Positions 11,636 through 47,749 of a stretch of 64,000 nt of DNA are shown here, one piece after another. Numbering within the stretch: position 1 is the stretch's first letter; the number at the start of each line of letters is the position of its first letter. The stretch spans positions 1,193,513 to 1,257,512 of the forward strand of contig NMRA01000011.1 in the NCBI GenBank assembly GCA_002633005.1. Reading direction: 5' to 3'. A program made the position numbers and the translations under genes. The notes below the pieces were generated by a model. That model saw nothing but the letters and a program-made list of their open reading frames with translations, ran no database searches and was not told where the DNA came from. This DNA is from Phoronis australis (Eukaryota; Animalia; Phoronida).

Positions 11636-12243
11636 AATCTCCACCACCACTCGTCGCCAATTTTGCAGACGTTTCCAGCTGTGGCCACCGAGTTGTTGTG
11701 CCCCCCGACACTACAAACCGTCGTTTCCTACATCAAAATTATACTAGAGATAACTCGTGTTGTTTTTTCCTTTTGTTATTAAAGCTCTTACGAACTGATT
11801 ATGAGTAGATGAGGCAGGCATACACGCGATCATCCAATACACAATACGATGGTTCGCGTGAGAGCGCCATCCTCATGATTTGAGCATTGACTTTCCGTTA
11901 ATCTCTGTCTATGAAAGACAGAAAGCCAAGAAATATNAATCTCCACCACCACTCGTCGCCAATTTTGCAGACGTTTCCAGCTGTGGCCACCGAGTTGTTG
12001 TGCTCCCCCCCCGACACTACAAACCTGTCGTTTCCTACATCAAAATTGTACTAGAGATAACTCGTGTTGTTTTTTCCTTTTGTTATTAAAGCTCTTACGA
12101 ACTGATTATGAGTAGATGAGGCAGGCATACACGCGATCATCCAATACACAATACGATGGTTCGCACGAGAGCGCCATCCTCATGATTTGAGCATTGGCTT
12201 TCCGTTAATCTCTGTCTATGAAAGACAGAAAGCCAAGAAATAT
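11636..12243. other. Apparent ~300-bp tandem duplication around a single N at 11937 (assembly overlap)
   Basis: 11636-11936 and 11938-12243 are near-identical, with a few SNPs and indels, and meet exactly at the N. Confidence 0.85.
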
Positions 12244-15200
12244 GAACAAACGCGTGAATTTCCAACACATGAAATACGACATTTAAATAAGTAGTATTGA
12301 GTTCACGAACTAATCAATTATCTATGTTATGGCGTTTCGACAGAAAGTACAACGATTTCCTGAATAATTTGATAATAATGTCGTACTTCATCATTCGTGA
12401 ATTCTCGTCTCAGAACGAGACTTTTACGGATTTCTCAATTTCACCAGATATAGTGTAATCTGTCAAAACGAGCTCACCGAGATTAAGTAAAATAAAATCT
12501 CTGTCTTGATTTAACATCAAGTACAATTCCAATTAACATAGGGGCATACCAAAGTTACTAGCCCAATTTCCAAACTTATAATGTTGACTACCCACGACGA
12601 AGGGTGACTGTCTCTATCTATGAATACACTTGCCAGTGTTTACCAGGTCTTGAGAATATAGTCCTTGGTACTTGATAAAGTAAATCTAATGCAGGCAATA
12701 CACGTTCTTATCAGTAATGTAGTGCCCTATTAAACCAATCTTTGAAATACTCGCTGATAAAATGGTGGCCGCTGCGAGGTAACACTCTTCTATTGGAAAT
12801 AGAAATGTTCACAAGACATTTGTTGTTGTAGTGGATAAATGTTTTATCGACCAGCGTAACCCGCGTGCTGTTTACCTGCGCGTTTGGTGGAATTAAATCC
12901 CTGTAGCAGTTTTAGGCACTGCGTCACTGCACCCAGACACATCAAAATACTTGTCGACTGGGAAGACAATTGCAGTTCACAAATCTTCATATATATAATT
13001 AGCAAATAAAAATAAATTCTCGATAACATTAAAACAAAACGAGTTTTGTAAAGGGACATTAACCGTTTAACGGCCGAAAAACGCAATTTTGGGATTGTTA
13101 AATGGGATAAACTTCTCGAAGTCATTAGCTTTGTTCAGAGCTATAAAACAACTAAATCCGTTGATTGTGTGATTTTGTTACAAATCACCGTTTTCTGTCA
13201 GATATTTGTCGAAATCAAATCAGGCGTGCTATTTACCGCGTGGGTTTGGCTCAACGGCTGAGCATCCGGCTGCTACCGTGAGGTTAGTGGGCTAGTATCC
13301 GCACATCATTGCTATTTTATGTAAAATTTCTTATCTGGCCGAATGTCCTTTTCATTTGCCTTTTGATGCAAATACGAAAATTGACAAACGGGCATCTTGT
13401 AACTGGTGAGACATGTGTAAGCACTTGAAACAGCGTAAAGTTAGTGCATCTATAGGTCCGTTCACGCCAGTCTTTTTGCGTCATCTGGGCCCGGAGTTTA
13501 ATCTCTCGAAACTCGACTTGAAAATTGACCAATGACTGAACGCGCTTCGAGTAAACTTATACATTTGCCCTCGAATCATGTCGCATGATTGAAAGTTTAT
13601 CACAAGATGGTAAAAATGCGGCATTATTACTGTTGTCCACCCAGGTGAAAAAAATGCGTAAACTGAGGAAAAACTTTGCAAAAAGAATCGCATGAAAGGG
13701 TCTGACTTCCGAATAAACCAGATGAGAACGCCGACCGATAATTTCTTGTCTTGATGCCCATGGAATATAGGGTTAAACTAAAAAGCCAGGCATTCTAAAC
13801 CGTTCTCTGAATTTTTGGCTCTTCTATAAATGAACTTAAACATAACGGACGCCTGACGAAAACTGGAGTTATTTATCAAAGCAGCAGCAACTAAACAATG
13901 ATTGAAAGATGGTCGAAAATCCCATTTAGTTTTCTTAGATGGAAACGTGACCTGGAACAATACAACATGTTCTTGTCCCAAATAGGCGTATTCTCGCTAC
14001 ATTAGGCTTATTCTCTCGGTAGTTGTTCTTTTAACAGTTCTCAAATAGAAGAAAACGTTTAATTTCACCCGTTTCCTTAGGCTGACGACTTTATAATTTG
14101 ATTGTGTTAAAGCGCTCTAGCTAGCATGAGAAGGGGTCTCTTTAATAGTGTTCAAGAACTAACCAAAATTAATAACAACGCCTTTCGTATTTTTCCCACC
14201 GGGCGTTGCATTAAGCTACTTCCCCGTTTGAGTTACCTACAAAAAGAGTGAATTCAATTGAGCAATTTAATTGGCAAAGAACTAAAAGAAAAGACATGAT
14301 TTTCTGACAATTTATTAGAATTATAATCAATTCGAACTTCGACAGAAAATAAAACGCCGTTTTTCCCAACCAGCAACTAGGAAATGCATTTGAATATAGT
14401 CGTCAATTTTTAACAAATGAGATTCACTATACCATTAAGATCGAACAAATTTGGCGAATAGTCATCAAAACAGAGATTAAATAAAAAATGTATTTAATAC
14501 AAAATTATCACCGATATTTATTTCCATTGCTCAAAGTCTACTAACATTGTGCACAATAACTGATTGGTCACGACACAGGCACGTAGGTAAGATTCGTATT
14601 GACAAGGAACAATTCTTCAAGTTCACTTCACTTCAAACGGATTACAGTAATTGAGTTGTGAATGAGCAGCCCTAGTAGTTCAACGTGGCCACGCCGAACT
14701 TAAATATTTCCACGGTTACTGGAATTCAAATAATAGAAAGTTTACTGTGTCTTTTCCCGCTATTCAAAGAAGATCCCTGTCGAGAGCGAGTGCGAGTATA
14801 CAAGATTTCAGTGCGGTATTTGTTATTCTGTTGGAAGGTTTATTCTCAAGTAACTTTGTCTACGAGATAATTGGGGTAAAGAGAACAACAGGGGAAATCG
14901 ACCAAGACTTTGTATTGCCGGCAAACAGTTGCTCGTGTAGCCATTCGAACTGGATTATAGACACAAACCTGGCTGCCAATTTGCATATTGCATAAAGCTA
15001 GCAAAAGTGAAAAATGTAGTGTTAGTGATGCACACGACACACGTTTTGAAGATTGTTTTCATTAAAGCCTGACAAAAATGTAATTCATTTGCAAAAATAT
15101 AAAACAGTACTATCCCAATATTACGCCCAGGCTAACTCATGGCCGCAAGTCTCGTTTATGACTTGTTCAAACGCCAGAACACAAGCTTTAATATTTCGGC

Positions 15201-15994: not shown

Positions 15995-17033
15995 ATGAAG
16001 CAAAGGCGACCGTCGGACATATTGTATGTTTTTGGAATACTTTTCGTGGTGCGCGTTCAGGCCAGTAGGCCCTTCTTAGGGATGTTTGGCCCTCAACAAG
16101 ACCCTCCAGACCCGTGTTATGACGAGGACGGGGCCCCTAAGAGATGTATGCCTGACTTTGTCAACGCTGCCTTTAACAAGGACATCGTAGCCAGTAGCAC
16201 GTGCGGTACACCACCGTCTCGTTACTGCATGACAACCATCGACCAAAAACTGGGAGAAACGTCCCGGATATGCAACATCTGTGATGCCAACCATCCCAAG
16301 AGAATGCACCCTCCGGCGTACCTCACTGATTTAAATAACCTAAATAACGTCACGTGCTGGATGTCAGAACCGTTCCAGAATCACCCTAAAAATGTCACGC
16401 TCACGCTGGCTCTGGATAAGAAGTATGAACTAACTTACATATCTCTACAATTCTGCTCCTCTCGCCCGGACTCCATGGCGATTTACAAAAGCATGGATTT
16501 CGGGAAAACGTGGGTCCCATTCCAGTACTATTCGGGATCTTGCCGCAAAATGTACGACAAAGTTTCGCGAGGGACGGTCACTAAAGCAAACGAACAGGAA
16601 GCGATATGTACAGACGCCTACAGCACTTCAAAAATCACCGGCGATAGAATCGCTTTTTCCACCCTTGAGGGCCGACCTTCGGGTTATGATTTTGATAACA
16701 GCCCCGTTCTGCAAGACTGGGTGACCGCCACCAACATCAAAATAGTTTTCAATCGACTTAGCACTCTGAAATCCGAAGCCGAAAGCATTGAGAACAATCA
16801 AGCAGAGGTAGACCTTGGCAAATCAGAAAATTTCTATTCTCTGTCCGACTTTGCAGTTGGTGGTCGATGCAAATGCAACGGACACGCGTCCTCGTGCAGT
16901 AAGAACCGAGACGGTCAGACGGTGTGTGATTGTAAGCACAACACGGCTGGAGTGGACTGCGACCGCTGTAAACCTTTCCACGTTGATCGCCCCTGGGCCA
17001 GGGCAACAGCGAGAGAAGCAAACGAGTGCGTCG
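15995..17033 (+). CDS. NTN1: Netrin coding exon 1: signal peptide, laminin VI domain and LE1 (V-1)
   Basis: [23 protein letters not shown] signal-like N-terminus, then [62 protein letters not shown]...[15 protein letters not shown]. Donor G|GTAGGT at 17033/17034. Confidence 0.96.
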
Positions 17034-29000: not shown

Positions 29001-32000
29001 CGCACAGTTGGTGACATTCGATTCCCACCACTCAGCCCTCAAAAGTGATTCAACCTAGAAAAAGAAAACAGTGTAATTAAAGACCACTTTGCACCAACAG
29101 TGTGCTTGGGTGTTCAACTAAATGAAACTAAAACTTGGTGCTTAGAAGAGAAACTTGAGAAAATAAACAGACTTCTATTAAACACCAGGGAAACAGAGTA
29201 TACTACAAAGTATGGGTGAGGAAGGTGTGTAAAATGTAGATAAACATGAGAAGAAATGCCATGAGATTAGAGAAATATCTGATCATAGGAAATTTTAAAA
29301 GAAAATGAAGGCAAACCCAAGCAGAAGCAGCATGCATGCCCTCTAGTGTAGATGAAGCCATGAGGGGAACAGTCTTCAGATCATTCATAAGTGACAACTT
29401 TATCCTCACACAAGTGCAGAAGGTTTCATCGGCTGAGAAAATGCGATTAGTTTTAAAAAAACAACAGCTTCAGGCATTTGGTAGAGCAGCAAACGACAGC
29501 CCAACACACGTTGTGGCCAGCAACGACAAGCTGTTTTGGACTTGTTGAAACGCTGCGCTGTGCAACACAAGGTCAAACTAAGGTGACTTGTGTTCTCCAT
29601 TCACTGCTTGCTACTAGTTGTAACAGATCAAGTGCTTTAACCAATACAAGTAACAGTGAAATAGTACATTTTAAACCAAACATGAAATTCATAGATATGA
29701 ATCACATGTTGTATTAAGAAACTTGCTTATCATTATATGTTAAGGTAGATTACTACTACTACTACTACTACTACTATTACTACACTGCCTATCTTTAACT
29801 ACACACAATAGAAACAAGTCATTTATTGTTTAAGATCACAACAGTTTCAAGTCAACAACATCCAAGCAACAATTTAAAGAAAGGAAAAGTGCCCACATGA
29901 ATCAAAAATTCGATTTTCAGATGCTTGGTATTTTTCCTCACGGGATGAGAGTTAAATGCAACGAAGAAAAACTATGAAGCATAACTGGTTAATCCTCATC
30001 TTAATATTAACATTAATATTAACATTAATATTAACATTAACATTAAAATTAACAAAAGATTAATTCACTGTTGATTTTATTGATTTGTCTAACTCAATTG
30101 AAATTTCACACAATAGGCACTAAAGCTGTCAACAAGCTTTGAAGAAAAACCAGTTTAAAAAGCATATTTAAGACAATTCATTCCATGTGTTACTTTTTCT
30201 TTGGCTGCCATTAATTTACAAACACCGTGTTCACTGCAATGTGGAATTCAGAAAGTAGGCAAAAGCCAGTTGTTGTTTTTCCTAACATTTCTATGGCACG
30301 CTTTGCTGCTTATGCTTATCAACTCTTTGCTTCCACTTTGTCATAGCTGTGTTCTCTACCTTTTCTTTACAGCTTGTAACTGTAACCTCCATGCCAAAAA
30401 CTGCCGTTTTAACATGGAGCTTTACAAACTATCGGGACACAAGAGTGGAGGAGTTTGTCTCAACTGCCGGCACAATACCGCCGGTCGAAACTGTCATTAT
30501 TGTAAGGAAGGATTCTATAGGGATCAAACCAAACCCATCACCCACCGCAAGGCATGCAAAGGTAGGTGGGGCCAGAGTAGTCCGTCTTACATGTACCTTG
30601 TCCTTGCAGCATGTACGTGCAACCTTCATGCCCGACGTTGTCGCTTTAACAGCGAGTTGTACTCACTGTCAGGACAGCTCAGCGGAGGTGTCTGCATTGG
30701 CTGTAAGCACCATACCGCAGGCAGGTATTGCCACTACTGTCAAGAGGGGTTTTACCGTGACCTTAAAAAACCCATATCACATCGCAAGGCATGCAAAGGT
30801 AGGCAAAGAGTAAGTCACGTGGCAGGTACATGAAAGGAATGTGCAGGTGAATAATAGCACCACACAACTAGGACATCTTTGCTCTGAAAGTCCATTAGCC
30901 ATCAAGTGTACAGGTTCCAAGGTTTATTAGGTGGAAAATGTCACAAAATATGAAATTACTCCAGTCAAGAGGCTTAGCATTTTGAACTTTGATGAGAACT
31001 CTAATCAGTCTGAAGGTTCGTTAATCTTTTGGTCTACGGGTAGGAAGGTCATTAGTCTGATTTTTGGGCATTTGGACCAGGGGGCGCATCAAAACAAATT
31101 AAGGACTTTCAGTTCAATACACGCTATGAGCAGCCGGGAATAGGACAAAATGAGTGCTGGAGAGACAGGGCCAGCAAGGAAAAGGTCAACATCCATTAGT
31201 TTTTTTGTGAAGATCTGAATCAATTTCACACAGAAGGAATGTGTGTGTGAGTGTGTGTGTTTATGTGTCTCCCTGGTAGAAAGTGGGTGGGAACGTCTAG
31301 GTCAGAGGGGATGTTGTGATGTAGGAAGTGAAAGTATTTAGAAATCGAGCATCATGTTGTCAAAGTTGGGTGCACACATCAACAGTATGGTAAGAGGCAA
31401 CTTGTGTGTGAGATCACCAGCGTTTATTGTGTAACCAGATGAAGGTGTTGAGGTGGTCTTCTTCATTTTTCTAGTTCCAGCACCATTAAAACACAGGGGC
31501 TCACTGCTGGAACACTACAAGTTTCCAACAGCTGTTTTCCATTTTGAATTACAAGACTGATCTGTGTTTATATTGTGTAGGACACTTCTGTCTGCGAAAA
31601 ATGTTCACTCCACTGTAGACAAGTGATGTCAGAAGCTTAGGAGACCATGTGACTCACATACTTAGGAGAATCTTATGATGAAACTTGCTGCTTTCACCCC
31701 TTGATGAACTCAGTATTCATTGACACGTACTGCTATGAAATTGGTCTTGACTTGATCCTTATTCAGATGAGAAGTGATTACTCGGTTTGCAAAAAGCTGA
31801 CAGTTGATTATTCCTAGAGATGTTGCTTGGCGCACATCAGGCCCCACATGGCATTTCCCAACTGGTAGCTATAAATGCTTCTTACCAGTGGAGATTACAA
31901 AAGGCAACTTACCACCTGCCCTGGACTTTTATGACGGACTTTTTTCTTTTGGGCCAGGAACAAAAATGAGTCTCGATCACACCACTGCGTGTTTTTGGCC

Positions 32001-35000: not shown

Positions 35001-37110
35001 CTAAAATAATGCTATTATATTGAAACAGTTCATGTCTACAAGTTTTTATTGCCTTTTTAAAAGTAAAATTGAAGCATCTAGTGTAGTCCAGAATAACATT
35101 TTTGAGTATGAATTTAGAATTACGTCATTAATTTGTGATTTTTTTTCAAGGGAACAAGATAGATGAGTATGGCCAAAATCTAGGACACAGCATGGCCCAC
35201 AAATGAAATATTTGACCATTTTTCCATGCAGCATATGCAGCACTTAATTAAATGATGTTTCATGTTCAAGTTTTGTACCACAGTTACTACTACACAAAGT
35301 TTTTAGAAGTTGGGAACATTTGCAACATTAGAGACCCTTCAAAATGAAAGAAAGGTCATTTTGGCAATTGTTTTTGTATGGAATTGGTGAAATTTTACAG
35401 AAGTTATTTTTAGCCATTAGTTGTGGATGGCGATGCTTTTTTGCTAAAGGTATATATGCACCGTTCTACTTGGACATTCACAACAATATCAGAAGCCCTT
35501 AAAATGAGAAAAATGATCATTTTGGCAATTATTTTTCATTCGTTATTGGTGACATTTTATCTCAATGTACCCAATTACTACATAATAACCTTATTACTAT
35601 ATATTCATCCAGGGCCTAAACTGGTGAATTTCAATAATAAAAGTCCTCAGCAACACAGCATGGCAGAAAAGTGAAATTTTATTTAATTAAATTTCACAAA
35701 TAACAAACTTCATGAATTTTTACTTGGTACAGTACATCTGTCCACTAACTACATTTGGTGAAATTTTCAGCAATATAACTACGAGAAATAGAAAAAAATG
35801 CAAATTTCAGCAATTATATTTGTCTCAAGTTTAAGATTTTATATGGTAGAGTTATAGTTATCTAGAAAGGGAATATGTTACATTGGAGTGTACACCCAGT
35901 CTGCCCTGCTTCAGCCTATTTTTATGTCTCAGTTTTTTAGATCCTTGCCGACACAAATGGATGAAACAGAAGGCAAAAAGGGTAGTTTATCTTAGTGTTA
36001 CCAAGGCTGGACACACATAAAGGGGAGCATTAGAAAAACTTTAGAACCATAGTTGCTAGAAATGCTCATTAAGAAGATGCCACCTGCGGATATTGTATTA
36101 ATTATGTGTCTGGCTATGAAATATAACTAGCAATAATAGTCATGTGGTTCTAATAGAATCATTCTCAACTCAGTAACTTCAAGAATGACAAATTTAGCCT
36201 ATGGTCTGTTCTCCTTTGGACAATGAGTCTTGCTTAGATAACATTATTGACTAGTTGTTAAAATGTAAGCAGTGTTTGCAATGAACATGCAGTTTGTGAC
36301 AAGTTAATGTTTGTTTTATGTTTGCAGCTCTGAGTGAAATCTGATAGCCAACAAATGGCTTTAATTACTGTCATAAAATAGAGAGTGAGATATCTAGCAT
36401 ATTTGAATGACAGTTACTAACAAATGCATGTGACAACTGTGCCTAGCCCATAAGCAGTTTTAAAGTAATTAGATGAACTCTTCGCTGAATGTCAGTCATA
36501 TATAAATCAGAACCTATTGAAATATCTACTGAGAATGAAAACAAATATGAAAGTTGCAAATGTTAAGTTGCCTGTCACAGCAAAGTTGATTACAATAGTT
36601 GGATATTGAAACATGGGAAGTTGTGAACAATTTTTTAAAACAATTCCAACCTATTGATTACGGTAAAAAATCTTCAGTTTGGGGCACAACATGGCAGACA
36701 GGTGAAATTTAATTTTGTCAAATTTCTCAAAAAATAACTTTTCAGGAAAAATTTGCTTATAGCATAGTTTGTATGGCGTAACTAATACCATACATTTGGA
36801 ATCATCTTGGACATTTGCAACAATGTGGTAATCCTCTGAAAAATAGAAATTTGGCAATTTTAGCAATTATTTTTGTCCCAAATTGAAGAATTTTTACCAT
36901 ACTTTCTAAAGATAAAACTAGAGCAGTCTTGTAAATATTGATGCAATGTCATGAGGGTCAGCCTGCTCAGAGAAAGACCGCTTCCCTTCCCCAGTTGCCC
37001 GCTGTCGCTCATGACTAAGACTTCCTAACAATAACTCTGTAGTGAGCCAGCCAACCGCACAAATCGCTGGGCTATACTGAATGCAAAAAAGCACCAGAAT
37101 ATTTACTACA

Positions 37111-40100: not shown

Positions 40101-43100
40101 AACATTCCCGTTACTAACTTTAAAATTTTACCAAAAGGTCACTAAGCTGTACTTGCTTGGCACCTGGCTGCTCTCTGACTTTGTTCGTGTGGCAGGCTCC
40201 GGTTGCACGATCGGCCATGTCCCGAAAAATGTGTAGAGCTGTTCGAAGTGTGGACAATTTCCAAGGCAGTCGTCAGAAAAGGCCTTACTTCTATGGACAG
40301 CATCTCTCACGTTCCTGTATGTCTCAACTTTTTCATTTGTCAGTCGCCCTCTGGTAACACATCACAGTCATCCGACTGGCTATCGCCTGATACACCATCG
40401 AAAATACCTTGAATTGGCGACTTGCTCCAAATGCTCAGTTTCATTTGGTATCCGGTTACCACTTCTATTCTAGTTAAATTTGCTGCTTTGAGACATGTTC
40501 TTAAAAGTTGTACAGTGAGCAGCAATCACACAGTATCAAGAGTGTGTGAAATGATGGGAAAACCTCCACACTGGCGTGAAGTGGTGAGACAATTTAGGAT
40601 GGTGAAATATAATCCGGACTAAACTTTTCGCATTGCCGTTATGTAATTGAAGTAACTTTGGTGTGCTCGCTAGTTAGTACGGCCTTTTCTTGCAAACTAA
40701 CTTACCTCCTAAATTTAGACAAGTCGAAATCATCTTTTACTTTGAGTCTAAAATTTTGTGGCTGAGAAAAGAATATTAGTCCATCGTTCTAAATCCGTAG
40801 TGCGAAAGGCTCTTTAATATATGGAAATCATTCAAACTTATGGTACATAAGAACATGATTGCAATGAATTCACATACCCTTCTGCTATCCTAACATTAAC
40901 ATGTTTTCAGCAAATTAAATCTCTCCAATTCAAAACTTTGGTTACAACATTATAACCTTATCCATTTCAATGAAAAATTACTGACTGTTACCGTTAATGC
41001 GTTCTCATACCTACCGCAAATAGAAGTGTCAACATGAGAAATACCACTAACTGGTATTTGCCTAAGGTAAATAGTAGCAGCCTATTGAAGACTCCTGTAA
41101 GTTCACACCTTGAAGCCACCGACACAAAGGGTGGTAACAAACATAGTCAACTTAAACATTTAACTTTAACTGGAATGTGTTTTCAAACTTTGAAAGTAAG
41201 AGTAGTCTAGTGGTCAACTTGAGGTCTGCATGCTTTGTACAGTTGACAATGAAGCAGTGTAATTGGATTTTCAAGCTGGCAATGCTATTTGTTGGGTTCA
41301 TTTCCGTTTTCTCGAAACTTCTTGATCCAATTTAGTCTTCAATGTATGTTACAACATAAAAAGTTGTACAGTTGCGTATTATAAACACCTTTATGAAAAT
41401 AATACCAAGTTGCAATATTTCTAAAGATAATACGCTTTTGAAAATTATCAACCTACTTAACTCTTAACCGTTTTCAAAGTATTGTGACCAAAATTTAGAG
41501 TCATTATTGGGCTCCTGTTGGTGATCAAATTGTTTAGATAAAATAAACATGTAGGAAACACATGTGAATGTTTTTATGTTCAAGTTATGACTGGGACTAT
41601 CTTAGCAACATGGGCGGTAAAAATATTTAACATTTGGACTGCTATTTGAGTTTTTTAAATGAATTAGCTATTCTGAGACTTCTGTTTTACTTTCATCTTT
41701 AATTCTGGAAGCTGTGTGTTTTGCATGTACTGGACATATTATATATCATCCACAATGTCTCAAGACCCCCCTCTCTGCTCCACCTCTCTCTCATAGTGTG
41801 TCTGTGCTATATTTATAGGAGAAAATAAGAATAATTGGTCACAAATGATGATTGACAAAACATTGTTATTTATCTAGGATCCCTAGAAAAGTGTCCAAAT
41901 CAGGGTAACTTCGGAACATCATATCTCAGAAATGGATGATTAAATTCAATGAAAATTTCAAATACTGTGCGTTATGTACTGTTCTCCAAAATGCTGTTGG
42001 GAATTATTTTTAAAATGTTCCCATTTTGCATGAGGGGATATCAAAGGATGACTGTTATGATATTCGCAGAAAAACTTCAACATTGCGTAAAACAAAAACT
42101 AAATATTTTAGAAAACTATAACAGCGATTTTGAGATCTCACCTCGAACATTTATATCGAATAAAATTTGAACATGTTATTGACAACATTGTTTTGCTATC
42201 GATGTGCATGTCTTTTTTGCAAAATTTTACTAATTAATAATAGGTTACTAAAAATATAAATTCTACAGGCCATGTAATTTCAGAAAATACATATTTTTAT
42301 TGAGTTAAAATCTAAAGTTTTGTAGATATTTAGCTACATAGGTAGACCTGTAAATAAGATCTTACATAATCTTAGCCAATGCAAGGCTGGACCCTTCATA
42401 ATGAAGTAACTTAATTTTTCAGCATGTAACTGTCACCCTGTTGGCTCCTCCGGAAAAATCTGCAACCAGACAACAGGACAGTGTCCATGTAAAGAAGGAG
42501 TGATGGGTCTGATCTGCGACAAGTGTGCGAAGGGATACCAACAAAGTCGAACACCCATTGCACCCTGTGTCAGTAAGTAACTGCTTATGAGTATCTGGAC
42601 TTAAGTGTTGGGTAACAAGAAGAAAATTTAAGCTGATCTGCTTTGTTTCGTACTTTTTAACTGCGTTTAATGAGCCTCATACAGTCCCGGGGCTAAGCAT
42701 CAGCACAGTTTGAACATTTAATAGAATAATACCAAAAATTAATACTTTAAACTAACATTCTTTGATATTACATTAGTTTTGTTCAGTATAAAATTATTGC
42801 TGCTCTACATGTTAGTTACTGCCATTAGATCAGAGATTTAAAGCAATCTTAAAGCGTACAGTTTCAGCATGGAAAGGCTAAATCTTGCTCTGAATCTTGA
42901 AGTCACTGTGATGTCCGTCTGTGTGTCATGTACTACAATTAACTGCCTCTCAGGTGCATGCTCAGTAGTAGTATTTTACTGTGTCAAGCTGTGATTTGTA
43001 CATGGCTTTATTGTGCTCAACTTTAGGATTGCATGGGCTCTTTAGTGAAAGGAGGTAAGAACGCGAGCCTTTATGTGTAAAAATGAATAATCCTGTCACA

Positions 43101-46100
43101 AATAAAAAACTTACTGACACAAGAATAAATCGAAAATAAAATACAGATGTTCGTTTCATAAATTTGACAACAATGCATCGTGAAATCAACATAAATTAAA
43201 AAAGCGTACTTTCGCACATGATGAGATATAAGTTTGCTTGCTACATAGGACATTTATTCCAAGTAAAACCCTCAATTACGCAAACATGCTGAATCCATGT
43301 GGGCCAGGATTCCCAACAGACTTAGATTCCATGTGGTGTATGCATGACAGTCTTCTACCCCCCTCCTCTCTTGCATGAGCCTCTAGACACTGCATCTTGG
43401 CATTTTGACCAGTCCTCTTTTTACAATTTGCCAATTTGTGTATTTTCAGGGAAATCATCTGAAGAATTTTTCCCTGTGGACGAAGTATTTACAGGTGTCT
43501 TAATTATTTATTTGTTGTTTCATGCAGACCTTGCGTATTGTATCCAACTGAATTGCTTGGACACGATCTTCACGCTCGCTGCACGCACACTCTTTTGCAC
43601 TAAATTTATCTGAACCAAAGCAATTAAAAATTTTCATAAATATGAAGAATCAGTAAACGAATAATCAAAATTACTAAACAAGAATATAGTCTGCAATGTG
43701 CATGATTTGTCCTTATACAAAGTAATACTTTTAAAAGCAATTTGTGGCTTATTGAAAATACATCAGTCAAGTGACGCTCTTTTTGCAACCAACCAACTTG
43801 GGAACTACAAGAGACTTAATAATGGCAAAAAAATTCAAATTATTCATTAAATCAAACATTGAAATGGCAAGACTAATTCCTACTAATAAGTTGTCTGGGG
43901 GGTTTGTCTACAATAGTGTTGAGCTCGAATGCTATTTATTGCCTGCCAATCGATAACAGCGATGAGTGTTTTTGATATCAGAAACTCTGCATTCAGCAGT
44001 TAGTAAATAGATGTCAAAACTTTTCAAGCAAATATTTGATAACACACTACTTCACACCAATGCAGACCAAATCGGCATATAATACAAGAGATAAAATTCC
44101 ATACCGGCCAACTCTTTGAAAAGACGTGTAAGCCTGGATTAACTTAATCTACATTTTTGCTCCACGAGGTGTTATAAAATGTCAAAACTATAAAAAATTA
44201 GACTCCAGTGGAATACATAACAAGTAAACAAATTATATCATGCTGGTGGGCTATTTCTAAACAAAACATTCCTTTGATGAGTAACCTTTACACAAATACA
44301 ACTTGTTTTATCTGATAATTTTTGTAAATATCAGGATGTACTTTGTTCAGGTAGATAACTCTCATGTTTACTAACTAAGAACAATTAACCATATATGCGA
44401 TCAACAAGCACACTGCGCTAAGACAACATCTCACCTCCTGTATAGAAGGGAATTGTATCAAAAGAATCCCAAAACTTTAAATTAGTTTCATTATCACCTT
44501 CCACTGCAAAAAGTAGACTTCAAGGCAGCCTGTATTCACCAGTCTCATTACATATCACTTTCAAGCCTTTTGCCATATTTTCTATAAAAACATTCCTTGC
44601 GCACATGTAGCTAAGTGCTTTATGTTGATTCAGATTCCAGATGACTACAATTACTAACACGCACCCAAAGGTAAGCGACTTCCGAACATGATGCAGCTAA
44701 AATTCTCCTGTGACGGGCATTCAAAGTGACTCTATCACTTCTAAGGAAATATTGGACTGTAAAAATCAGGGTTGAGAGCTACAACAAGCATGAGAATTGA
44801 AAATTAGGAAATATGGGGTTGAGCATTAGGCTGAATAATGGCTATCCAACAACACGAATCAAGTGATAAAACAACATCTTTAGTTTTTATAGATACGGTT
44901 AAAACTTTTTAAAACTATTATTCATGTGCCAAATATGTGAGTTGTTTGGAACTATTTCACACAACTTCAGTTATAAGAGTTGTTTGAGACTACTACTTCA
45001 TTTAGTGACAATTCAACAGCGGCTATGTTCTGTATTTTTATCACTACTGTCAATGGGTGGATGAGCAAGACATTTTCTACCTTGACTTTATAATGGCTAA
45101 TGGAAACGCGTTTCAGAGAATGAAGACATCACACCCTAATTAGGACACTTTTCTAACAAATTTTTGACAGACTTCAAGAGATGGTGTAACAATGTCAGTA
45201 AATGCACGGTCTACAACTTGGCTTACGGTAAAATCTCCCGATTTAGGACACACTATGGCGGACAAATAAAATTTTGTTTTTTTAAAAGTTTTTTCAGTGT
45301 CAACTTTTTTACTTTAGTTAACGTTGGACAATGAGTTAAGAAACTGTAGCATTCACAACAATGTAGGAGCGTTAGAATATTAAAAGAAGTCCAATTTTGT
45401 CAATTATTTTAGTCTAAACTAAATGATGTATTGCTGAAGATCAGAATGAGAGGCATGTATGATAATTGCAGATCACTTTGCGGGTGATTGTCAAAACAGA
45501 GATTCTAATGAATAACTTCACAGTGTATGATGCATCTTTGAACCACAATCTTAACATGTCAATCAAAGACCAATGCTTTCACACCATCTGGGAATGGTAC
45601 ATAACAATTTCACCACTGCAAAGGAGATAGACACACAGCGCTTGATCGGTTAATTTTTGGTACTAATACTTGAAACATTCAGGGAATGCCTGTACCTAAA
45701 TTATATGGATTTTAATCAGTCTTCTTGTATTTTAGAAATACCACAAGCAGTTGTTCCAACCATGGCTTCCAAACCAGCTAGAAAGCCTGGTAAGTTTTCT
45801 GTATTTCAGCACAATATGACTTTTCACTGTCTCTGGCTCAAATAAGCTCACTCAGAGACTACGAACCACCAGCTAGTTAGAAAATGACCAATACAGGTCC
45901 AGTATCACGGCTATCAAAATGTATTGGTGTTAACCATCTAATACATTTATGTTGCTCAAAATTTAATCTTGCAAGAAAAAAATGATGACCAATTAGTGTG
46001 AACACGTCCACAGTACGTATAGCTGTGTAACTTCCTTGTTTTAATTTTAGCTCGCAAATGTAACCAGAAATGCAGGGTAAACAGCAGAAGAGTGAACCTG

Positions 46101-46982
46101 AAGAAATATTGCCGTCGGGACTTTGGTAAGCACAATTTTTAAGTAATAACAAAAGTACCAATTTTCCTACTAACCTCATTTTCATTACATCACGATTAAT
46201 GAATAAATTATGATAATGACTTTATGTTCACACTTACTCGGAGCCATAAGTCAGATATGACACTCTCCTAACAGTCGAGAGTGTAGCTAAACCACTTAAG
46301 TTCCTTAGTACTAATAGACTAGTCAGTAATCAGTACCTTGACTGACGTATCTCACATTCGTGTGCTCTCACTAATGAGGCCCTCTCACATAAATACATAT
46401 TCTCACAAAATCTAAGCCAGTCTAAACATCTTGATAAAACCCGAGCTTTGGCCAAAAATGGTTCGAATGAAACACCATCGAAGGGGTACAATGCTTACTA
46501 GACATTTCTCCCTTTTCTGGATGGCACTGTGTATTGGTTTGACAGGACCCTTTGTTATGACCAAGCTCAGGTGTAAGGTATGGAGCAGGGGGTCTGGCAG
46601 TGAAAATTAAAAAAGAAGTTGAATGAGTCAAGCAATCCCATCAAAAATTGATGTTTCAGCTTTCCAAGCACATGTGCTCTCAAAAGAAATTGTGGACAAG
46701 AATTGGGTGAAGTTCAGGATCGACATCTACAATGTCTATAAGCAGCAGAAGATTCGTTTGCGACGCGGACCACAAAATATCTACATTGCCAAATCTGACT
46801 ACGAATGCAAATGTCCGAAAGTGCGTCTGGCACGAAGATTCCTTTTCGTAGGAAAGAACAAGAGGTACCGCAACGGTATTCTTTTGGACAGGAAAAGTAT
46901 AGTGGCTCCATGGAAAGATGACTGGGAGAGGCGGCTGAGGAGGTGGGCAACAAAGGACCGCAACGGCAAATGTCGGTCATGA
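15995..46982 (+). CDS. NTN1: Netrin-1/UNC-6-family secreted axon guidance cue, spliced gene: join(15995..17033, 30373..30561 [or 30610..30798], 42423..42572, 45736..45789, 46051..46125, 46660..46982); 1830 nt = 609 aa + stop
   Basis: Signal peptide, laminin N-terminal (VI) domain, three laminin-EGF (V) repeats and a C-terminal NTR/C345C domain. All introns are GT-AG and phase 1, and the joined exons give an uninterrupted frame. Internal exon sizes 189/150/54/75 nt match the vertebrate netrin-1 structure as I recall it. Confidence 0.95.
29751..29783. repeat. (CTA)n microsatellite
   Basis: tactactactactac... seen directly. Other simple repeats: (CA)n ~11122, (AAC)/(AAT) ~21932-22030, (TTAATATTAACA)n 30001-30053, (ATT)n ~37112-37148. 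Confidence 0.9.
30373..30561 (+). CDS. NTN1: Netrin exon 2A: laminin-EGF repeat LE2 (V-2), copy A
   Basis: Acceptor ctttttctttacAG, 189 nt, [63 protein letters not shown], donor G|GTAGGT. Confidence 0.94.
30610..30798 (+). CDS. NTN1: Netrin exon 2B: duplicated LE2 (V-2) exon, copy B, probable mutually exclusive alternative exon
   Basis: Acceptor ccttgtccttgcAG, 189 nt, [63 protein letters not shown] with all 8 Cys kept, donor G|GTAGGC. Confidence 0.88.
32309..32466. repeat. Minisatellite, four copies of a ~39-bp unit
   Basis: TACAGTTCCCACTGTCCTAGAAGCGTAATACTTGACATA repeated head to tail with no spacers. Confidence 0.92.
37372..37983. mobile_element. Tc1/mariner-like MITE (~610 bp)
   Basis: TA-CAGGGTGATTCTCCTAAAACAGGCC ... 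GGCCTGCTTCAGGAGAATCACCCT terminal inverted repeats. Confidence 0.7.
38403..38975 (-). mobile_element. Non-autonomous DNA element, inverted copy of 58612-59138
   Basis: Collinear reverse-complement similarity along the length, e.g. GGGAAAGGTTAAC, GTGGGAAAGGTCA, CATCAGATGAAGAATGACACTG, CCCTAATGGGAAAG. Confidence 0.75.
40128..40460 (-). pseudogene. Decayed Myb/SANT-like (trihelix, Harbinger ORF1-type) coding remnant in netrin intron 2
   Basis: Minus-strand fragments [15 protein letters not shown] and [19 protein letters not shown] resemble the N- and C-terminal motifs of Myb/SANT-like DNA-binding domains. Interrupted by stops and frameshifts. Confidence 0.4.
42423..42572 (+). CDS. NTN1: Netrin exon 3: LE3 (V-3)
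   Basis: Acceptor tttttcAG, 150 nt, [50 protein letters not shown], donor A|GTAAGT. Not in the ORF track. Confidence 0.95.
45736..45789 (+). CDS. NTN1: Netrin exon 4: Pro-rich linker
   Basis: Acceptor cttcttgtattttAG, 54 nt, [18 protein letters not shown] (cf. KIP.. linker of netrin-1), donor G|GTAAGT. Confidence 0.85.
46051..46125 (+). CDS. NTN1: Netrin exon 5: start of the NTR/C345C domain
   Basis: Acceptor ttaattttAG, 75 nt, [25 protein letters not shown] (cf. KKYCKKDY), donor G|GTAAGC. Confidence 0.92.
46660..46982 (+). CDS. NTN1: Netrin last coding exon: NTR/C345C domain with basic C-terminus
   Basis: Acceptor tgtttc[53 protein letters not shown] at 46980-46982. Confidence 0.94.
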
Positions 46983-47749
46983 TGCGATTTACAGACGCTC
47001 TTATTTATGGTATTGTGATATTAACAACTATTTGTGAATCTTGCAAATGTGAAGTTATGTCGTTACAAATGTGACGTTTGAACAGTGTTACGGTTTTATC
47101 CAAGACTAGGCACTTCACACGGACCTTTGATAATTGAAGAAGTTTAGTCTGATAATCAGCTCTTAATTTGGTTGGCGGAACTCTTTGAAACTGTCGACTT
47201 CCAAGTTTAACGGCAGCNAAATTGTGGACAAGAATTGGGTGAAGTTCAGGATCGACATCTACAATGTCTATAAGCAGCAGAAGATACGTTTGCGACGCGG
47301 ACCACAAAATATCTACATTGCCAAATCTGACTACGAATGCAAATGTCCGAAAGTGCGTCTGGCGCGAAGATTCCTTTTCGTAGGAAAGAACAAGAGGTAC
47401 CGCAACGGTATTCTTTTGGACAGGAAAAGTATAGTGGCTCCGTGGAAAGATGACTGGGAGAGGCGGCTGAGGAGGTGGGCAACAAAGGACCGCAACGGCA
47501 AATGTCGGTCATGATGCGATTTACAGACGCTCTTATTTATGGTATTGTGATATTAACAACTATTTGTGAATCTTGCAAATGTGAAGTTATGTCGTTACAA
47601 ATGTGACGTTTGAACAGTGTTACGGTTTTATCCAAGACTAGGCACTTCACACGGACCTTTGATAATTGAAGAAGTTTAGTCTGATAATCAGCTCTTAATT
47701 TGGTTGGCGGAACTCTTTGAAACTGTCGACTTCCAAGTTTAACGGCAGC
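46687..47749. other. Apparent 531-bp tandem duplication of the last netrin exon and proximal 3' UTR around a single N at 47218 (assembly overlap)
   Basis: 46687-47217 equals 47219-47749 except for the three synonymous SNPs I could see. The second copy starts mid-exon with no acceptor. Confidence 0.88.

What the first reader, a model, noticed from the sequence alone, without database searches (positions are those of the whole stretch)
30373..30798. The two V-2 copies partition the receptor/heparan-sulfate-binding basic residues: a possible attraction/repulsion splice switch
Seen: copy A reads [22 protein letters not shown] and copy B reads [22 protein letters not shown]. Established (from memory): the canonical netrin-1 sequence is [22 protein letters not shown], its RRxR cluster in V-2 is implicated in UNC5 and heparan-sulfate binding, and V-2 of UNC-6 is needed for UNC-5-dependent repulsion. 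Copy A is otherwise closest to the consensus but has lost RR (to KN). Copy B keeps RRxR but has replaced M, K, R/H and K in the following helix/loop. Inference: complementary subfunctionalisation, with A being UNC5/HS-weak (DCC/neogenin-biased) and B being UNC5-competent, selected by splicing.
Basis: partly seen in the sequence, partly recalled or inferred. Interest (0 to 1): 0.85.

Follow-up and report, generated by a model that had tools for sequence, protein, structure and literature searches.

The report
Ancient either/or exon in spiralian netrin
This animal's gene for netrin, a nerve-guidance signal, carries two versions of the exon for its receptor-binding module, used one or the other in the transcripts seen, and the same pair occurs in molluscs, worms and rotifers, so splicing likely tunes how the signal binds its partners, though an attraction/repulsion switch is untested.

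Summary
The window holds one netrin-1-type gene with two 189-nt exons for the second laminin-EGF module (LE2/V-2), 48 nt apart. In one RNA run, 3 reads join exon 1 to A and 3 join A to LE3, skipping B. Another run covers B with sharp ends. The spacer has essentially no sense depth. In a relative, all 25 changed codons listed are synonymous. Tandem copies or either/or isoforms occur in molluscs, an annelid, a nemertean, rotifers and a cestode; 18 of 20 B copies group together, and 0 of 57 arthropod, nematode and echinoderm control proteins have two copies. One ancient spiralian duplication is likely. The proposed polarity (A UNC5-weak, B UNC5-competent) is not supported. The RR split holds in 8 of 16 pairs, and this window's A keeps more of the published UNC5B contacts than B (3 vs 2 of 4). 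The steadiest difference lies on the UNC5-facing helix: B has K/R for M356 (15 of 20) and L for K360 (14 of 20). No description was found in the open literature searched; RefSeq already lists such isoforms automatically. Function is untested.

The parts
15995..17033 (+). Netrin coding exon 1: signal peptide (inferred), laminin N-terminal domain VI and LE1
   Evidence: Pfam Laminin_N 1.5e-76; its 3' end is the sequence joined to exon A in 3 RNA reads
30373..30561 (+). LE2/V-2 exon A (upstream copy; K350 N351, M356, K360, H364, N381 in chick numbering)
   Evidence: spliced to exon 1 and to the LE3 exon in run X4; 12 of 12 changed codons listed are synonymous in relative X1
30562..30609 (+). 48-nt GT-AG spacer intron; one yTnAy branch-point-like site with its A at intron nt 28 (30589)
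   Evidence: sense depth 0 to 0.08 in the three RNA runs; 47 nt in relative X1 (low-depth contig)
30610..30798 (+). LE2/V-2 exon B (downstream copy; R350 R351, S356, S360, Q364, L365)
   Evidence: covered in run X2 with sharp ends at both splice sites (bin arithmetic); 13 of 13 changed codons listed are synonymous in X1
42423..42572 (+). LE3 exon
   Evidence: Pfam EGF_laminin; its start is the loose end behind exon A in 3 reads
45736..45789 (+). Linker exon (acceptor inferred; two nearby in-frame alternatives exist)
   Evidence: donor and joint to the next exon seen in 7, 2 and 5 reads; model
46051..46125 (+). First NTR exon
   Evidence: joint 45788->46050, GT..AG at cut +1
46660..46982 (+). 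Last coding exon, NTR/C345C domain (acceptor inferred)
   Evidence: Pfam NTR 3e-19; either isoform models at about 609 aa

Best explanation
This is a netrin-1-type gene whose LE2 (V-2) exon is duplicated in tandem and spliced either/or in the transcripts seen, likely from one duplication early in Spiralia, and the two same-length isoforms would likely differ in how they bind UNC5, heparan sulfate and DCC site 2, as a graded tuning and not a clean attraction/repulsion switch. Shown: two intact exons, an A-only transcript, transcription of B, only synonymous changes listed in a relative, and the same pair in five spiralian phyla. Inferred: exclusion is enforced by the very short spacer (predicted branch point 28 nt from the 5' splice site). 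Inferred: the lasting functional difference sits on the loop-b helix, where B typically moves the basic residue one helical turn (M356->K/R, K360->L) while A tends to lose R351 and R364 and to gain N381. In this species A is predicted to bind heparan sulfate more weakly, and B to have the more altered direct UNC5 contact.
For: RNA: in X4, 3 reads join exon 1 to A and 3 join A to LE3; B has no sense depth in X4 or X3; X2 covers B with 2 reads at each end. The depth of 0.08 in the bin before B fits exon 1->B (1-base overlap) better than A->B (2-base overlap). Same-length isoform pairs differing only inside LE2: Littorina, Owenia and a Logan pair by whole-protein comparison; Crassostrea and Lineus pairs of equal length with different LE2. 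Tandem A-then-B records: Plakobranchus, Bradybaena, Pinctada, Adineta, Rotaria, Echinococcus and 9 non-redundant unnamed records. Tree: 18 of 20 B copies form one group (93/79), the B label needs 2 changes against 17.1 shuffled, and one B clade is not rejected (p-AU 0.169). Controls: 0 of 57 LE2-bearing arthropod, nematode and echinoderm proteins have two copies or a B signature, and 11 of 11 same-species isoform sets share one LE2. Residues: 356 is M/L/I in 19 of 20 A and 0 of 20 B; 360 is L in 14 of 20 B, 0 of 20 A and 0 of 74 non-spiralian or unassigned sequences. Literature: the loop-b helix contacts UNC5B and RRxR binds heparin.
Against: Read counts are tiny (18, 3 and 12 reads; about a fifth of each run was read) and joints under 3 reads are not listed, so low-level A+B inclusion is not excluded and B's partners are inferred. 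Both exons are 3n, so double inclusion stays in frame, and gene models in rotifers, Echinococcus and three molluscs join both. C. elegans splices introns from about 40 nt (PMC4165533), and read-through spacers in relatives reach 129 nt, so steric exclusion is not certain. The tree has only 62 columns, the B group is below the starred threshold, and two long-branch B copies fall outside it. Window B has S at 356 and 360, not the K/L signature. The role of K360 is disputed: PMC13759497 calls it critical for UNC5B binding, while a review says the antibody-binding residue is not a key receptor residue. The four-alanine LE2 mutant weakens binding only from 113 to 535 nM, and the complex structure is at 5.3 A. 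All functional inference is carried over from vertebrate and nematode proteins.
Confidence: 0.62

Rival explanations
1. One reading: A is UNC5/heparan-weak and attractive, B is UNC5-competent and repulsive.
For: Window A lacks R351 and R364; R351 is R in 2 of 16 A against 13 of 20 B, and R364 in 3 of 20 A against 11 of 20 B. Heparin bridging through R350/R351 is reported essential for NET1-UNC5B binding, and the RR mutant binds heparin less.
Against: RR only in B in 8 of 16 pairs and reversed in one; the basic count at 350/351/353 is higher in B in 7 pairs, equal in 5 and higher in A in 4. B loses K360. A is the commoner form here and the closer one to single-copy netrins. DCC site 2 uses the same residues.
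Confidence: 0.13
2. The reverse switch: A is the ancestral bifunctional netrin, and B, with K360->L and M356->K/R, is UNC5-weak, giving an attraction-biased or matrix-tethered form.
For: K360 is an interface residue and mouse K358L is cited as lowering binding; L360 occurs in 14 of 20 B copies from rotifers to molluscs; window B keeps 2 of 4 interface residues.
Against: K358L was measured against the antibody according to the citing sentence, and a review downplays that residue. Many mollusc A copies also lack K360 (K in only 9 of 20 A). B often keeps R364.
Confidence: 0.13
3. The exons are optional cassettes, not strictly exclusive, and a netrin with four LE modules (A+B) is a real product, at least in some lineages.
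For: Both exons and the window's spacer are in frame with no stop; rotifer, cestode and three mollusc gene models carry both copies.
Against: No A->B joint listed and almost no spacer depth. RefSeq isoform sets seen (Littorina, Crassostrea, Lineus) carry one copy each. The spacer is 47 nt in relative X1 and B is out of frame in two other genomic ORFs. The joined models are gene predictions whose RNA support I did not see.
Confidence: 0.08
4. B is a functionless or neutrally kept duplicate.
For: B is rarer here (seen in 1 of 3 runs) and window B sits on a long branch.
Against: 13 of 13 changed B codons listed are synonymous in a relative at about 90% identity; the B signature is shared across five phyla.
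Confidence: 0.04

Closest known systems
Netrin-1/UNC-6 family of secreted netrins (vertebrate NTN1, C. elegans UNC-6, Drosophila NetA/NetB)
   Same: Domain order LN-LE1-LE2-LE3-NTR; up to about 70% identity over exon 1 to invertebrate netrins; LE2 aligns without gaps to solved netrin-1.
   Different: Two alternative LE2 exons. The controls examined have one LE2, and a review of vertebrate netrin isoforms shows no homologous-exon swap in the passages seen (PMC6408995).
Mutually exclusive homologous exons in binding modules (FGFR IIIb/IIIc and Dscam1, recalled; OGDH 4a/4b and C. elegans egl-15 5A/5B, passages)
   Same: Tandem duplicated, equal-length, same-phase exons that swap a binding surface, with a short spacer compatible with steric exclusion.
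   Different: Here the swap is in a secreted guidance ligand and replaces a whole LE module; the binding difference and the splicing regulators are unknown.
Netrin-G1 splice isoforms
   Same: Alternative splicing within the LE region of a netrin-named protein.
   Different: Netrin-G is a separately evolved, GPI-anchored group that does not bind DCC or UNC5; its isoforms add or drop non-homologous cassettes.

Membership tests
Netrin-1/UNC-6 secreted netrins | LN + three LE modules + NTR domain in one reading frame | tested here: met
   Pfam hits; spliced model of about 609 aa with either exon
Netrin-1/UNC-6 secreted netrins | Sequence closer to netrin-1/UNC-6 than to netrin-4 or laminins | tested here: met
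   exon A scores 121-125 bits to netrin-1, 110 to UNC-6, 71 to netrin-4 and at most 53 to laminins; groups with lophotrochozoan netrins, support 86, unstarred
Netrin-1/UNC-6 secreted netrins | Binds DCC/neogenin and UNC5 | not testable with these tools
Mutually exclusive homologous exons | Tandem, homologous, equal-length, same-phase exons | tested here: met
   189/189 nt, phase 1-1, 74% amino-acid identity
Mutually exclusive homologous exons | Each exon is used alone in mRNA | tested here: met
   A alone shown by junction sequence (3+3 reads); B alone inferred from sharp ends in X2 and shown as B-only isoforms in relatives
Mutually exclusive homologous exons | Double inclusion is absent or rare | tested here: inconclusive
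   no A->B joint listed, but the listing threshold is 3 reads and only 33 reads were laid
Mutually exclusive homologous exons | An enforcing mechanism (steric, NMD, RNA pairing) | tested here: inconclusive
   predicted branch point 28 nt from the donor, below the ~50-nt vertebrate threshold; NMD cannot act on 3n exons; a 13-nt stem over the branch point is broken in the relative
   RR only in B in 8 of 16 pairs; interface residues favour A in 5, B in 3, tie in 8

The most novel reading that the evidence does not exclude
Since their last common ancestor, spiralians have carried a ligand-side splice switch in netrin: swapping one exon rewires the helix that contacts UNC5 (M356/K360 to K356/L360), so the cell that secretes netrin, not only the cell that receives it, decides between attraction and repulsion.
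Probability: 0.22. Interest if true: 0.88.

Novelty: new variant of a known kind. Interest (0 to 1): 0.64.

Why it matters
Netrin's two-way action is normally explained on the receiving side, by whether UNC5 is present. LE2 is the module tied to UNC5, heparan sulfate, DCC site 2 and dimer formation. A conserved either/or LE2 exon would give a large part of the animal tree a sender-side control that the fly, worm and vertebrate models appear to lack. It supplies natural variants at positions (351, 356, 360, 364, 381) for dissecting which contacts make netrin repulsive, and a possible marker for spiralian ancestry. It also warns that RNAi and in situ work in spiralian models pools two proteins, and that four-LE netrin gene models may be mis-joined. 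Even without a switch, the exon pair is a real and apparently undescribed piece of netrin evolution.

Tried and rejected
Assembly artefact: rejected. A and B are 67% identical in DNA with many synonymous differences, unlike the 97-99% duplicates at the two N positions. Species-specific duplication: rejected by the shared B group. In-frame retention of the spacer as the product: not supported (no sense depth; 47 nt in X1). RR/KN as the conserved difference: rejected. RNA stem hiding B's branch point (30586-30598 with 30824-30836): two left-arm bases differ in X1 with no compensating change among the listed differences, so it was set aside. The run search listed no RNA holder; the evidence comes from laying same-label raw reads. 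The first, 17-kb lay was crowded by repeat-derived reads and listed no A/B junction. Rows left out of the 20-pair count: P0004, P0005 and the Littorina isoforms (near-identical to P0003), further rotifer records, a second Echinococcus species, a garbled rotifer model (P0319), and tick P0248, whose second copy is identical then breaks off (likely an assembly repeat). No structure or complex prediction was run: no UNC5 or DCC sequence was available. The organism could not be placed below 'lophotrochozoan-like, outside the mollusc group'. Literature searches that listed no paper on this exon pair: (listings only, apart from PMC6408995 and PMC10084454 passages); subscription journals are not covered. 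The scan's own index had no look-alike sequence.

Full report
What is there. The window is animal DNA (38% GC) holding one netrin gene on the + strand. Its first coding exon (15995-17033) encodes the laminin N-terminal domain and LE1, and later exons encode LE3 and the NTR domain. Between them lie two LE2 (V-2) exons, A at 30373-30561 and B at 30610-30798. Each is 189 nt, phase 1-1, with AG/GT ends, and they are 48 nt apart, while the introns on either side are 13,339 and 11,624 nt. They share 46 of 62 residues and 127 of 189 bases, and 26 of the 46 same-residue codons differ. Either exon gives a model of about 609 aa. In a quick tree this protein sits with lophotrochozoan netrins (support 86, unstarred), outside the mollusc group.

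Splicing. The run search listed no RNA holder but added three raw RNA runs by species label. Their reads match the stretch closely: 28 of 33 at 99% or more, the rest at 95-99%. About a fifth of each run was read. In X4, three reads carry the end of exon 1 before A and three carry the start of the LE3 exon behind A, so B is skipped; the loose-end sequences match 17004-17032 and 42423 onward. X4 and X3 have no sense depth on B. X2 covers both exons. For B the depth starts and stops at the splice sites with two reads each: 1.75 x 24 = 2 x 21 bases at the 3' end, and 0.08 x 24 = 2 bases before the 5' end. That fits exon 1 as partner (1-base chance overlap per read) better than exon A (2 bases). 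This is arithmetic on bins, not a listed joint. Sense depth in the spacer is 0 to 0.08. Joints under three reads are not listed, so rare A+B molecules are not excluded. A contig of a relative at about 90% identity (X1, depth 4.4) spans both exons. Of the 40 of 49 differences shown, those in A change 12 codons and those in B 13, all synonymously, and its spacer is 47 nt.

How widespread. Three protein searches (best 120 rows each) and three cluster look-ups gave 416 proteins. Tandem A-then-B records come from the molluscs Plakobranchus, Bradybaena and Pinctada, the rotifers Adineta and Rotaria, the cestode Echinococcus, and unnamed contigs. Equal-length isoform pairs with different LE2 are recorded for Littorina, Crassostrea, the annelid Owenia, the nemertean Lineus and a Logan pair; for Littorina, Owenia and the Logan pair a whole-protein comparison put all 15-17 differences inside LE2. 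Ten unnamed read-through ORFs imply spacers of 45-129 nt, a sample biased to in-frame, stop-free spacers. In a tree of 61 LE2 sequences, 18 of 20 B copies, from rotifers to molluscs and including the window's, form one group (93/79). The B label needs 2 changes against 17.1 shuffled, and a single B clade is not rejected (p-AU 0.169), which does not prove it. The A copies mix with single-copy outgroups. The two exceptions are long branches (Echinococcus and unnamed P0246), and 62 columns is little. As a control, 57 of 74 arthropod, nematode and echinoderm proteins had an LE2; none had two or a B signature, and 11 of 11 same-species isoform sets shared one LE2. Spider and starfish isoform sets agreed. 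These are annotations, not genome searches. That rotifers branch early in Spiralia, and that this ancestor is Cambrian or older, is recalled knowledge.

Which residues differ. I used chick numbering, anchored on residues 350-366 of PMC13759497 and checked against R374, H375, K395, H399, R400 and K401. Twenty non-redundant pairs were scored (16 with known genomic order including the window, 4 assigned by likeness; in 4 the start of A is missing). The RR motif is in B only in 8 of 16, neither in 6, both in 1 and A only in 1. The best separators are 356 (M/L/I in 19 of 20 A, 0 of 20 B; K/R in 15 of 20 B), 381 (N in 16 of 20 A, 1 of 20 B), 360 (L in 14 of 20 B, 0 of 20 A) and 364 (R in 3 of 20 A, 11 of 20 B). 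Among 74 distinct non-spiralian or unassigned LE2 sequences (mostly vertebrate), 356 is M in 72, 360 is K in 70 and never L, and 351 is R or K in all 74. Both copies have thus left a nearly invariant ancestral surface in different ways. The window's B has S at 356 and 360, a further departure.

What those residues do elsewhere. PMC9984387 (passages): RRxR and the RH-HR pocket bind glycosaminoglycan, and the RR mutant binds heparin less. PMC10871540 (passages): the UNC-6 heparin site is K354, R355, R357, R378, R404, K405; deleting EGF2 removes repulsion; human R348D/R351D abolishes DCC site 2. PMC13759497 (abstract, first third of Results, passages, first third of supplement 1): the loop-b helix of LE2 contacts UNC5B Ig2 in a 5.3 A structure; R353A/N355A/K360A/R364A shifts KD from 113 to 535 nM; heparin bridging through R350, R351 and R374 is called essential; mouse K358L is cited as lowering antibody binding and confirming a role in UNC5B binding. 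The review PMC5372507 (passages) says UNC5B and DCC site 2 need the same residues and that the antibody's residue is not a key one. The primary papers behind these citations were not read. Mapped on the window, A loses one heparin arginine (351) and R364 but keeps K360; B keeps the heparin sites but loses K360 and R364. Each copy is weakened for UNC5 by a different route, so polarity cannot be read from sequence. Across pairs the four interface residues favour A in 5, B in 3 and tie in 8.

How it most likely works. Shown: two constrained exons, an A-only mRNA, B transcribed. Inferred: the short spacer blocks A-to-B splicing. The only yTnAy site puts the branch A 28 nt from the donor, under the ~50-nt limit cited for vertebrates (PMC7969005 passages), but nematodes splice introns from about 40 nt (PMC4165533 passages) and some relatives have longer spacers. 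Inferred: the isoforms differ in site-2 chemistry, with the typical B moving a basic side chain from 360 to 356, one helical turn away. I expect graded differences in UNC5 and heparan-sulfate binding, hence in range and repulsive strength. A binary switch in either direction is possible but has no consistent sequence signature.

Known or new. The gene is an ordinary netrin-1/UNC-6 member, and mutually exclusive homologous exons are a known device. Seven searches of the open-access library listed no paper on a duplicated netrin LE2 exon. A netrin isoform review (PMC6408995, passages) and a review of wiring-molecule evolution (PMC10084454, passages) did not show it in what I saw. Subscription papers on leech, planarian or annelid netrins are outside the library and could mention it. 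Automatic annotations already hold the isoforms without comment. The scan had no look-alike by sequence; by words it returned only an analogous exon pair in sea urchin EGFR, not checked.

Verdict. Observation confirmed; splicing supported on few reads plus relatives; spiralian-wide origin likely; the proposed polarity not supported; function untested. New variant of a known kind, interest 0.64.

Noticed in passing
window 46687-47749 and 11636-12246: Near-identical direct duplicates (99.4% over 531 nt; 96.8% over 309 nt) on either side of the single N at 47218 and at 11937; likely scaffold-joint artefacts, the first repeating most of the last netrin exon.
   Followed up: partly
window 30586-30598 and 30824-30836: 13-nt inverted repeat, 12 of 13 complementary, pairing the predicted branch point before exon B with the intron behind B; two left-arm bases differ in relative X1 with no listed compensation.
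   Followed up: partly
window 30250-30350 and 30750-30970: A few reads in the orientation opposite to the netrin mRNA flank the exon pair in X2 and X4; antisense transcription or noise.
   Followed up: no
window about 36660-36900 and 41900-42045: Short intronic segments with very high depth and many loose ends in all four runs, typical of high-copy repeats.
   Followed up: no
P0234 (Argiope isoform X4); many ~553-aa vertebrate 'isoform X2' rows: The spider isoform lacks the 50-residue LE3 module; the short vertebrate isoforms may do the same (not checked). LE3-less netrin-1 is reported monomeric.
   Followed up: partly
P0213 (Glandiceps, hemichordate): Its LE2 has N at 356 and 360 and falls next to the B group with weak support (94/71); convergence or a sign of an older origin.
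   Followed up: no
P0321-P0327, P0332 (Rotaria socialis): Gene models exist as A-only, B-only and A+B in the same species; their RNA support was not seen.
   Followed up: no
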